NCBI RefSeq assembly: GCF_048403405.1
Contig: NZ_CP183129.1
Reading direction: 5' to 3' (one strand)
DNA: 64,000 bases
From: Escherichia coli
GTDB taxonomy: Bacteria; Pseudomonadota; Gammaproteobacteria; Enterobacterales; Enterobacteriaceae
The notes under the pieces were generated by a model. The model was not told where the DNA came from, made no database searches, and saw only the letters and a program-made list of their open reading frames with translations. Below are positions 59,324-61,315 of this stretch, in pieces. The position numbers were made by a program, and so were the translations under genes. Numbering within the stretch: the first letter of the stretch is position 1; the number at the start of each line of letters is the position of its first letter.

Positions 59324-60943
59324 ATGGGCAACGCAATGCACTCTCTTAAGACACTTCTACAGTTACCTTGCGGATGGCGATGCAGTCGACAAATTATTAG
59401 CTCTGACGGTATAACCCTCCATCTCCACGGAAAACGCAAAACAGCACAATGTCCTGAATGCTTTAAGCGTAGCGACTCTGTTCATAGTTGTCGTCGGCGC
59501 CGGATACAGCATCTACCCTGCTCAGGGCAGACGCTATGGCTTGTATTTTCCGTCCGCCACTGGTACTGCCGTAACCCGGCTTGTTCACGTAAAATTTTTG
59601 CCGAGTCGCTTGCTCCCTTCGCCAGTTCACACCAGCAGTCTTCACAGGCGTTACAAAATTAACAATGTCAACTGGGATTAATAGCTGGAGGTGAGGCTGG
59701 AAAACGGGCTGCAACGGCAGTGGGTCTCCGTTGCAGTGCTGATACTCTTCTTCGCAGGCTTATCAATACCCCGGAGACGAAACAGTCAGGCGCGCCTCAT
59801 GTCGGTATTGATGAGTGGGCGTGGCATCGGGGCCACTGCTGCGGTATGTTAATAGTCAATCCTGATACTCACCGTCCCCTCGTCCTGCTTCCCGGCCGTG
59901 ATCAGCGTACGCTGGCGACCTGGTTCAGAAAATATCCGGAAATACAGGTTGTCTCGCGTGATCGCAGTGGAGTCTATGCGACAGCAGCACGTGAAGGTGC
60001 ACCTCAGGCCAGACAGGTGGCCGATCGATGGCACCTGCTAAAAAATATTGGTGATGAGCCTGAACGAATGATGTACAGACATATGCCTCTGATACGTCTT
60101 GTTGTCAGAGAGTTATCACTGAAGAAATCACCTGAGCCAGAAATATCTGTGCCTGTAGCATCGCTCCGTCGTCTGGAACGCCTTAAACAGCACATCCGCA
60201 AAAAACGGCATCAGCGTTGGACAGAGGTTATGGCCCTGCATAACAAGGGATGTAGTTTCAGGGAAATATCCCGTATTACAGGCCTGTCGCGAGTGACAGT
60301 CAGTCGCTGGGTGGGTTCAGGAACATTCCCTGAAATGTCAACCAGGCCTCCAAAGCGAGGGCTTCTGGACCCATGGAGGGAGTGGTTAAAAGAGCAACGA
60401 GAATGTGGTAATTATAACTCCGGCCGGATATGGCGGGAAATGGTGGCCAGGGGGGTTACAGGCAGTGAAACCATCGTCAGGGATGCTGTTGCCAAATGGC
60501 ATAAAGGCTGGATCCCACCGGTTACTACTGCCGCAAGACTTCCTTCAGTGTCCCGGGTAAGCCGCTGGTTGATGCCCTGGAGAATAATCAGGGGTGAAGA
60601 AAATTATGCTTTCCGATTTATTAGTCTGATGTGTGAAAAAGAACCGGAGTTGAAAATAGCGCAGCAACTGGTACTCGAGTTCTACCGTATTCTGAAAACC
60701 TAAAATAAATCACAGCTAAGCAGCTGGTTCACTCGGGTCCACGAAAGCGGCTCAGCAGAACTTCGGTGCGTAGCTGCGGGGATGGAAGCTGATGCTGCGG
60801 CTATATGTGAGGCAATCAGCAGTCGCTGGAGTACTGGTGTTGTCGAAGGTCATGTAAATCGCCTGAAGGTGCTGATACGCCAGATGTATGGTCGAGCCGG
60901 ACTTGAACTACTTAGGCGGAGGGTAATGAGTCCACTGGCATGA
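59324..60943 (+). pseudogene. ISL3-family transposase, frameshifted into three ORF pieces
   Basis: N-terminal Zn-finger piece, central piece (GIDEWAWHRGH ... VVSRDRSGVYA ... DRWHLLKN), C-terminal piece (VVEGHVNRLKVLIRQMYGRAGLELLRRRVM) in different frames. Confidence 0.6.
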
Positions 60944-60989
60944 AAATCTTCACCTAGGTTGAGGAAGAGCCACTTTTGCACTGTTCGTG

Positions 60990-61315
60990 ACAGTATGGCC
61001 TTTATGTACTCACTTTGTTACCGGTAGCTGGATCATCACTACCGTGCCGCAAATGGTGGTGAACAGCATCAATTGTGGAATGAATGTTGCCGAAGCGACC
61101 AATGCGCCTCGTTTCCACCATCAGTGGTTGCCGGACGAGCTGCGTGTTGAAAAGGGTTTAGTCCGGATACGCTCAAGCTGCTGGAAGCAAAAGGTCAGAA
61201 AGTGGCGCTGAATGAGGCGATGGGCAGCACGCAAAGCATTATGGTTGGGTCGGATGGTGAGTTGTACGGCGCATCCGACTCGCGCTTGGTGGATGATTTA
61301 ACGGCGGGGTATTAA
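60990..61315 (+). pseudogene. ggt: gamma-glutamyltranspeptidase (ggt) 3' remnant, frameshifted
   Basis: Translations match GGT C-terminus (IITTV.QMVVNSI ... NAPRFHHQWLPDELRVEKG; SPDTLKLLEAKGQKVAL ... DDLTAGY*) in two frames; 5' part absent. Confidence 0.7.

What the first reader, a model, noticed from the sequence alone, without database searches (positions are those of the whole stretch)
59324..61315. ISL3 transposase pseudogene abutting a decayed ggt 3' fragment
An ISL3-family transposase is broken into three frames and is immediately followed by a remnant of gamma-glutamyltranspeptidase that carries its own frameshift and an internal deletion. The canonical ggt lies far from the his region, so this is a second, decayed ggt copy within island DNA, pointing to an older mosaic island.
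Basis: partly seen in the sequence, partly recalled or inferred. Interest (0 to 1): 0.35.

Follow-up and report, generated by a model that had tools for sequence, protein, structure and literature searches.

The report
Dead ISEc38 beside ggt stub
A dead copy of the insertion sequence ISEc38 sits next to the last 300 bases of a gamma-glutamyltransferase gene in an E. coli genomic island; the stub is the torn edge of a chromosomal block carried into the island, and both are ordinary pseudogenes already annotated in thousands of genomes.

Summary
Window 59229-60992 is an ISEc38-like ISL3 insertion sequence with both terminal inverted repeats. Its transposase gene (59324-60943) lies in one reading frame, not three. 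Two nonsense codons break it (TTA>TAA at 59660, CAA>TAA at 60701), and there are no indels against an intact copy.

Window 61017-61315 is a ggt 3' stub covering codons 478-580. It is 92.5% identical to K-12 ggt and carries a 1-nt deletion and a probable 12-nt slippage deletion. A full-length ggt exists elsewhere in 5421 of 5426 complete E. coli genomes.

The added result is that the stub is not a free-standing second copy. In Citrobacter, Salmonella bongori and S. diarizonae the canonical locus reads yhhX, PfkB-GATase-DMT-PTE, ggt, yhhA, ugpQ. The window is colinear with that locus from the ggt stub through the shared terminator and all four genes (4.47 kb). The stub is therefore the edge of a captured Escherichia-lineage block bounded by IS remnants.

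The junction and the Q460* lesion are shared across distant E. coli lineages, so the event is old. NCBI's PGAP pipeline already annotates both pseudogenes. Interest is low.

The parts
59229..60992 (+). ISEc38-like insertion sequence (ISL3 family), about 1764 bp and immobile
   Evidence: Imperfect terminal inverted repeats found. Independent copies in a chromosome (L006) and a plasmid (L005, annotated 'ISL3-like element ISEc38 family transposase') share the same ends.
59228..59270 (+). Left terminal inverted repeat, intact
   Evidence: Repeat pair I1. Its reverse complement equals the right end of the intact copy L006 (GGAAGAACCACTTTTCATCCGTCGTTGACA).
60951..60993 (+). Right terminal inverted repeat, with the outer ~16 nt degraded
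   Evidence: Repeat pair I1 is 77% complementary. The window has GCACTGTTCGTGACAG where L005 and L006 have CATCCGTCGTTGACA.
59324..60943 (+). Transposase pseudogene: one reading frame with two premature stops
   Evidence: PGAP note 'internal stop'.
59660..59662 (+). Nonsense codon L113* (TTA>TAA), private to the window's lineage
   Evidence: Absent from the CFT073, O104:H4, GABEEC10 and KMi006 copies.
60701..60703 (+). Nonsense codon Q460* (CAA>TAA), shared by all island copies examined
60994..61016 (.). 23-nt filler between the IS end and the ggt homology, origin unknown
   Evidence: 4 of 23 matches to K-12 ggt by hand comparison of the sequences shown. Conserved in all island copies.
61017..61315 (+). 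ggt 3' stub (K-12 codons 478-580 plus the stop codon), lacking a start, the large subunit and the Thr391 nucleophile
   Evidence: PGAP note 'frameshifted; incomplete; missing N-terminus'.
61028..61029 (+). Site of the probable 12-nt in-frame deletion (CCAGGCGGTAGC, residues PGGS) between GGTAGC repeats
61150..61153 (+). A4 run where K-12 has A5: a 1-nt deletion that shifts the frame
61321..61347 (.). GC-rich hairpin between the convergent ggt stub and the PTE gene, with a T-run only on the + strand. It is of the Citrobacter/Salmonella type, not the K-12 ggt terminator.
   Evidence: (I12).
61355..62389 (-). Intact phosphotriesterase-family (PTE) gene, first gene of the captured block
62392..63357 (-). 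Intact DMT (YdcZ-type) transporter gene of the block
63414..64000 (-). GATase1-like gene, which runs off the window. A DeoR-HTH/PfkB kinase gene and an IS66 remnant follow in the matching genomes.

Best explanation
A 4.47-kb chromosomal segment became part of the CP4-44-type island next to the his region. It consists of the last ~310 nt of ggt, the ggt/PTE intergenic hairpin, and the four-gene operon PTE-DMT-GATase1-like-DeoR/PfkB. It came from the yhhX-ggt interval of an Escherichia-lineage genome. One edge of the segment is cut inside ggt, next to an ISEc38-like ISL3 element. The other edge abuts an IS66 remnant. The ggt piece is therefore a passenger stub with no function. It has no start, no large subunit and no catalytic Thr391 (the residue number is from established knowledge of E. 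coli GGT). It is decaying neutrally. The IS was inactivated early by Q460* and by damage to the tip of its right inverted repeat, and each lineage has since added its own lesions. Shown here: the anatomy, the colinearity with Citrobacter and Salmonella, the Escherichia-type ggt sequence, and the lesions shared across strains. Inferred: the order of events, the role of the IS in the truncation, and the identity of the donor.
For: (1) Full-length ggt lies convergent with, and immediately downstream of, the PTE homologue in three Citrobacter genomes and in S. diarizonae. yhhA, ugpQ and ugpC lie beyond it. S. bongori has the same arrangement, with 1.7 kb inserted and yhhX and the pirin gene on the other side. 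(2) One continuous blastn alignment runs from window 61022 to window-equivalent 65495 in all four Citrobacter and S. diarizonae loci (~76% nt). K-12 homology stops at the ggt stop codon. (3) The intergenic hairpin has the CCCGGYG...CCGGG form seen in Citrobacter and Salmonella. K-12 has GCCCTCTTC...GAAGAGGGC instead. (4) The stub is 92.5% identical to K-12 ggt but only 81-82% to Citrobacter and Salmonella ggt. The four genes are 74-79% identical to both genera, which are equally far from each other. This pattern fits a third lineage at Escherichia distance. (5) Polarised differences: 12-13 changes are stub-derived, about half at codon positions 1 or 2. Six are K-12-derived, and five of those are at third positions. 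This indicates relaxed constraint on the stub. (6) The IS ends, the filler, both ggt deletions and Q460* are identical in the CFT073, O104:H4, GABEEC10, KMi006 and window copies, while each has private extra stops. (7) The block is flanked by IS remnants on both sides. (8) The stretch 59200-61400, which spans the IS and the stub, is present in 2626 of 5426 complete genomes.
Against: There is no 8-bp target-site duplication (TTCACATC versus GTATGGCC) and no empty site. The IS therefore cannot be shown to have made the cut. The 23-nt filler suggests an illegitimate junction that may predate the IS or be unrelated to it. No Escherichia genome with the cluster at the canonical ggt locus was found: none among the GTDB species representatives and 0 of 5426 E. 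coli genomes. The donor is inferred only from distances over 294 nt of ggt. Gene conversion of the stub by the resident ggt could inflate its E. coli likeness.
Confidence: 0.75

Rival explanations
1. The stub is a recent partial duplication of the resident E. coli ggt, made by an IS-mediated event, and only happens to lie beside the PTE operon.
For: The stub is closest to E. coli ggt (92.5%), and an IS abuts it.
Against: Homology to E. coli ends exactly at the stop codon, whereas homology to Citrobacter and Salmonella continues through the intergenic hairpin into the PTE gene. Six sites keep the outgroup state where K-12 is derived. No E. coli canonical allele exceeds 92.9% identity among the sampled rows. 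The junction is shared across distant lineages, so it is not recent.
Confidence: 0.05
2. The block was imported directly from Citrobacter or Salmonella.
For: Those genera carry the same gene order.
Against: The stub is 81-82% identical to their ggt versus 92.5% to E. coli. The four genes are only 74-79% identical to theirs, no closer than Citrobacter is to Salmonella. The protein database shows a gap between the E. coli cluster (99-100%) and the next relatives (88% and below). The few 92-96% entries looked up (P0007, P0014, P0022) are E. coli island variants.
Confidence: 0.05
3. The stub is kept because it does something, for example as the 3' flank and terminator context of the PTE operon or as a small-peptide ORF.
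For: The hairpin at 61321-61347 is intact. The stub is 99.0-99.3% identical among lineages, slightly more than the IS at 97-99%.
Against: Only the hairpin, which lies outside the stub, would be needed for termination. CFT073-type copies carry an extra stop inside the stub. Deletion variants remove the stub and IS altogether. No promoter-like site lies in 58900-61600. About half of the stub-derived substitutions are at codon positions 1 or 2.
Confidence: 0.05

Closest known systems
ISEc38 (ISL3 family insertion sequence of E. coli)
   Same: 94-96% nt identity over the whole element to copies annotated as ISEc38-family or ISL3 transposase. It has the same terminal repeats and the same 539-aa transposase architecture: an N-terminal zinc ribbon and a DDE_Tnp_ISL3 domain with an internal HTH insert.
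   Different: It has two nonsense codons, a degraded right repeat tip and no target-site duplication, so it is a fixed, immobile relic.
E. coli K-12 ggt (b3447, gamma-glutamyltransferase)
   Same: 92.5% nt identity over codons 484-580, or codons 478-580 if the 12-nt deletion is accepted. It has the same C-terminal peptide...DDLTAGY.
   Different: Only the last ~18% of the gene is present, with one frameshift and one 12-nt deletion. The downstream sequence is unrelated to that of K-12 (yrhB side).
Canonical yhhX-(PfkB-GATase-DMT-PTE)-ggt-yhhA-ugpQ locus of Citrobacter spp., Salmonella bongori and S. enterica subsp. diarizonae
   Same: Same gene order and orientation, the same convergent ggt/PTE junction with a similar hairpin, and colinear over 4.47 kb.
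   Different: In those genera ggt is whole and the locus is in the core chromosome. Here the block sits in an island between IS remnants, 74-82% nt identical to those loci.
CP4-44-type cryptic prophage/island of E. coli (cbtA/cbeA, yeeS, yeeT side)
   Same: Same chromosomal position between tmaR (yeeX) and cobU, and the same yeeS-yeeT-cbeA-cbtA-yeeW module. The K-12 gene order is from my own knowledge.
   Different: This version is much larger and carries additional cargo and many IS fragments.

Membership tests
ISL3 family insertion sequence (ISEc38-like) | Transposase with an ISL3 DDE domain and an N-terminal zinc ribbon | tested here: met
   Pfam PF14690 and PF01610 on the window ORFs. The intact 95.9%-identical copy scores 365.7 bits against NCBIfam transpos_ISL3, whose cut-off is 180.
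ISL3 family insertion sequence (ISEc38-like) | Terminal inverted repeats at both ends | tested here: met
   43-nt arms at 59228-59270 and 60951-60993, 77% complementary. Independent copies share the same ends. The right tip is degraded.
ISL3 family insertion sequence (ISEc38-like) | 8-bp direct target-site duplication flanking the element | tested here: not met
   The flanks TTCACATC and GTATGGCC are unrelated. This is consistent with a rearrangement at one end after insertion.
ISL3 family insertion sequence (ISEc38-like) | Uninterrupted transposase ORF, needed for an active element | tested here: not met
   Stops at codons 113 and 460.
Gamma-glutamyltransferase (functional GGT) | Sequence homology to G_glu_transpept / E. 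coli ggt | tested here: met
   Pfam E 2.8e-10; 92.5% nt identity to K-12 ggt.
Gamma-glutamyltransferase (functional GGT) | Complete precursor with signal peptide, large subunit and the autoprocessing nucleophile (Thr391 in E. coli, from established knowledge) | tested here: not met
   Homology starts at codon 478 of 580. A frameshift and a 12-nt deletion lie within the remainder.
Composite transposon | Cargo bracketed by two copies of the same IS | tested here: not met
   The left boundary is an ISEc38-like ISL3 element. The right boundary is an IS66-family fragment.

The most novel reading that the evidence does not exclude
The island block may be the only surviving Escherichia copy of an ancestral enterobacterial operon (DeoR/PfkB kinase, GATase1-like protein, DMT transporter, PTE hydrolase). 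That operon originally lay between yhhX and ggt and was later lost from the canonical E. coli locus. On this reading the ggt stub is a synteny fossil recording a chromosome-to-island relocation that predates the divergence of the E. coli lineages examined here.
Probability: 0.4. Interest if true: 0.3.

Novelty: already known. Interest (0 to 1): 0.12.

Why it matters
It matters little. Both pseudogenes are routinely annotated, and ISEc38 is a catalogued element reported in many E. coli genome surveys. The useful points are two. First, a correction: the transposase is broken by nonsense codons, not frameshifts. Second, a small piece of natural history: the ggt stub marks where a four-gene operon of unknown function was cut out of the ggt locus. 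That gives the operon's ancestral chromosomal address and a marker for tracing the island's descent among E. coli lineages.

Tried and rejected
(1) Target-site duplication or an empty site. None was found. Wherever the left flank reaches window 59228 in the sampled E. coli places, the same IS, stub and PTE gene follow. Other islands diverge earlier, at about 59017.

(2) An E. coli genome with a longer ggt joined to the PTE gene. A chimeric query (200 nt of K-12 ggt + window 61017-61500) gave 0 of 5426 genomes with at least 80% coverage.

(3) An intermediate donor lineage. PTE homologues at 92-96% identity (P0007, P0014, P0022) turned out to be E. coli island variants, some of them deletion fusions of the PTE gene with neighbouring island genes. 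They are not other species.

(4) Assigning the 23-nt filler (60994-61016) to ggt. Only 4 of 23 positions match, so this was rejected.

(5) RNA families. Rfam finds nothing in 59000-61500; the only window hits are His_leader, STnc240 and JUMPstart elsewhere.

(6) Promoter scan. No promoter-like sites lie in 58900-61600.

(7) Composite-transposon reading. Rejected because the flanking IS belong to different families.

Full report
Context. The window is E. coli chromosome. It runs from the colanic-acid, O-antigen and gnd region through the his operon, then yeeZ to tmaR, and into a large island at the CP4-44 position. Genomes identical over the tested parts of the window include strains 4621 and Z0117EC0056, with SMS-3-5 nearly identical. 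The finding lies inside the island. It sits between an 'inovirus Gp2 / zinc-ribbon / zinc-ribbon' module and a four-gene operon.

The insertion sequence. They are not in three frames: 59324, 59720 and 60782 share one frame. Translating 59324-60946 in that frame gives a 539-codon product interrupted by only two stops.

A blastn search found 3438 of 5426 complete E. coli genomes with a match. These include an intact chromosomal copy (L006, 95.9% nt identity over the transposase gene, 539 aa) and a plasmid copy that PGAP names 'ISL3-like element ISEc38 family transposase'. Aligned to the intact copy, the window gene has no indels and 67 substitutions (26 synonymous and 37 non-synonymous codons). 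The only disruptions are TTA>TAA at 59660 and CAA>TAA at 60701.

The element has 43-nt imperfect terminal inverted repeats at 59228-59270 and 60951-60993. The left tip is the exact reverse complement of the right tip of the intact copies. The outer ~16 nt of the window's right tip are degraded. The flanking octamers, TTCACATC and GTATGGCC, are not a duplication. The intact relative passes the NCBIfam ISL3 model at 365.7 bits against a cut-off of 180.

The ggt stub. ORF 60987-61211 hits G_glu_transpept. At the DNA level, window 61022-61315 is 92.5% identical to the 3' end of K-12 ggt, and the match ends exactly at the stop codon. One A is missing from an A5 run at 61150-61153, which explains the frame switch between ORFs 60987-61211 and 61202-61315.

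At the 5' edge the window reads GTTACCGGTAGC|TGGATC, where K-12 reads GTTACCGGTAGC[CCAGGCGGTAGC]CGGATC. A 12-nt slippage deletion between GGTAGC repeats is the more likely reading. It places the start of homology at 61017, which is K-12 codon 478. The 23 nt between the IS end and 61017 match nothing I could identify. The stub lacks the whole large subunit and the Thr391 nucleophile (established knowledge of E. coli GGT), so it cannot encode an enzyme.

A full ggt exists elsewhere. The 5' 1.4 kb of K-12 ggt is present at 80% coverage or more in 5421 of 5426 genomes. Island-bearing chromosomes show two ggt-like places.

What the stub really is. The K-12 sequence downstream of ggt (yrhB, yrhD, IS1, yrhA, tssD) is unrelated to the window downstream of the stub. 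I searched species-representative genomes with the adjacent phosphotriesterase-family (PTE) protein and then ran tblastn with K-12 GGT.

In three Citrobacter genomes and in S. enterica subsp. diarizonae, a ggt lies convergent with the PTE homologue, 40-50 nt from it. It is full-length in the Citrobacter genomes and cut by the stored locus end in S. diarizonae. In the Citrobacter loci, yhhA, ugpQ and ugpC lie beyond ggt, and in all four loci DMT, GATase1-like and DeoR/PfkB genes lie before the PTE gene. S. bongori has the same locus with yhhX and the pirin gene on the far side. This is the canonical ggt neighbourhood.

blastn gives one continuous alignment from window 61022 through the hairpin and all four genes to about 95 nt upstream of the PfkB gene. 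It spans 4.47 kb at ~76% identity in all four Citrobacter and S. diarizonae loci. The intergenic hairpin is of their type, not K-12's. Just beyond the far end of the block lies an IS66 fragment. The stub is therefore the torn edge of a chromosomal block, not an independent gene copy.

Donor. The stub is much closer to E. coli ggt (92.5%) than to Citrobacter or Salmonella ggt (81-82%). K-12 ggt is 83-84% identical to those genera. The four operon genes are 74-79% identical to both genera, and those genera are equally distant from each other. That is the pattern expected of an Escherichia-lineage version.

Polarising the 21-22 substitutions with the outgroups gives 12-13 on the stub branch, about half at codon positions 1 or 2. 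It gives 6 on the K-12 branch, 5 of them at third positions. So the stub has decayed without constraint, and it split from the K-12 allele before those six changes. Canonical ggt is itself polymorphic in E. coli, down to ~94% identity to K-12. No canonical allele among the sampled rows exceeds 92.9% identity to the stub. I cannot tell whether the donor was the ancestral E. coli locus itself or a sister Escherichia lineage. No Escherichia representative carries the operon, and no E. coli genome has it at the canonical locus.

Age and decay. The copies in CFT073, O104:H4 2009EL-2071, GABEEC10 and KMi006 share the IS ends, the filler, both ggt deletions and Q460*. L113* is private to the window's lineage, and the other lineages have their own extra lesions. 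CFT073 has a stop at codon 88 of the transposase and TGG>TGA in the stub. GABEEC10 has a stop at codon 67. KMi006 has a frameshift.

Divergence among these copies is 1-3% in the IS and about 1% in the stub. The arrangement therefore arose once and is old. From my own knowledge, these strains span several phylogroups. Other variants truncate the stub with an IS66 element or delete the stub and IS entirely, fusing the PTE gene to neighbouring genes. The stretch 59200-61400, spanning the IS and stub, is present in 2626 of 5426 complete genomes.

Verdict. PGAP already annotates both pseudogenes, with notes 'internal stop' and 'frameshifted; incomplete; missing N-terminus'. ISEc38 is a catalogued element that appears in many genome surveys. 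There is nothing mechanistically new here, and interest is low.

Noticed in passing
window 61355-64000 and beyond (L002 34941-38986): A four-gene operon sits next to ggt in Citrobacter and Salmonella. It encodes a PTE-family hydrolase, a YdcZ-type DMT transporter, a GATase1-like protein (PF07090) and a DeoR-HTH/ribokinase-like PfkB fusion. It also occurs without an adjacent ggt in Proteus, Providencia, Budvicia and Klebsiella, and PTE homologues are found in many actinobacteria. No NCBIfam equivalog reaches its cut-off for any of the four proteins, so the substrate is unknown.
   Followed up: partly
L006 1581-3200 (intact ISEc38-type transposase); window 60190-60700: The ISEc38-type ISL3 transposase carries an insert of roughly 170 aa in the middle of its DDE domain. 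The insert has a helix-turn-helix that matches the N-terminal region of IS21-family transposases (NCBIfam transpos_IS21, residues 303-394, E 3e-16). This is a feature of the element family, not of the decay.
   Followed up: partly
E. coli genomes, canonical ggt: Canonical ggt is unusually polymorphic within E. coli. About a third of complete genomes (1890 of 5425) carry an allele only 90-95% identical to K-12 over the first 1.4 kb.
   Followed up: no
L095, L098 (E. coli island variants); L004: Some E. coli lineages carry deletions that remove the IS and the ggt stub. These fuse the PTE gene to a zinc-ribbon-side or YjcZ-like neighbour, giving predicted 426-468 aa chimeras. Another lineage has an IS66 element cutting the stub down to its last 147 nt.
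   Followed up: partly
window about 39900-40300 (L002 13510-13883): The cbtA toxin gene of the island's CbtA/CbeA type IV toxin-antitoxin pair is annotated as frameshifted, while the cbeA antitoxin is intact.
   Followed up: no
window about 44400-51150 (L002 18038-24728): The island carries a gene run in one orientation encoding a patatin-like phospholipase, an RdcB-family protein, a dynamin-family protein, a GTPase and a hypothetical protein. An IS150 insertion and AAA-ATPase fragments lie just beyond it.
   Followed up: no
window 30586-30660 and 8619-8657: Rfam finds the sRNA STnc240 between yeeY and plaP and a JUMPstart element upstream of the polysaccharide cluster. It also finds the His leader at 28165-28288.
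   Followed up: no
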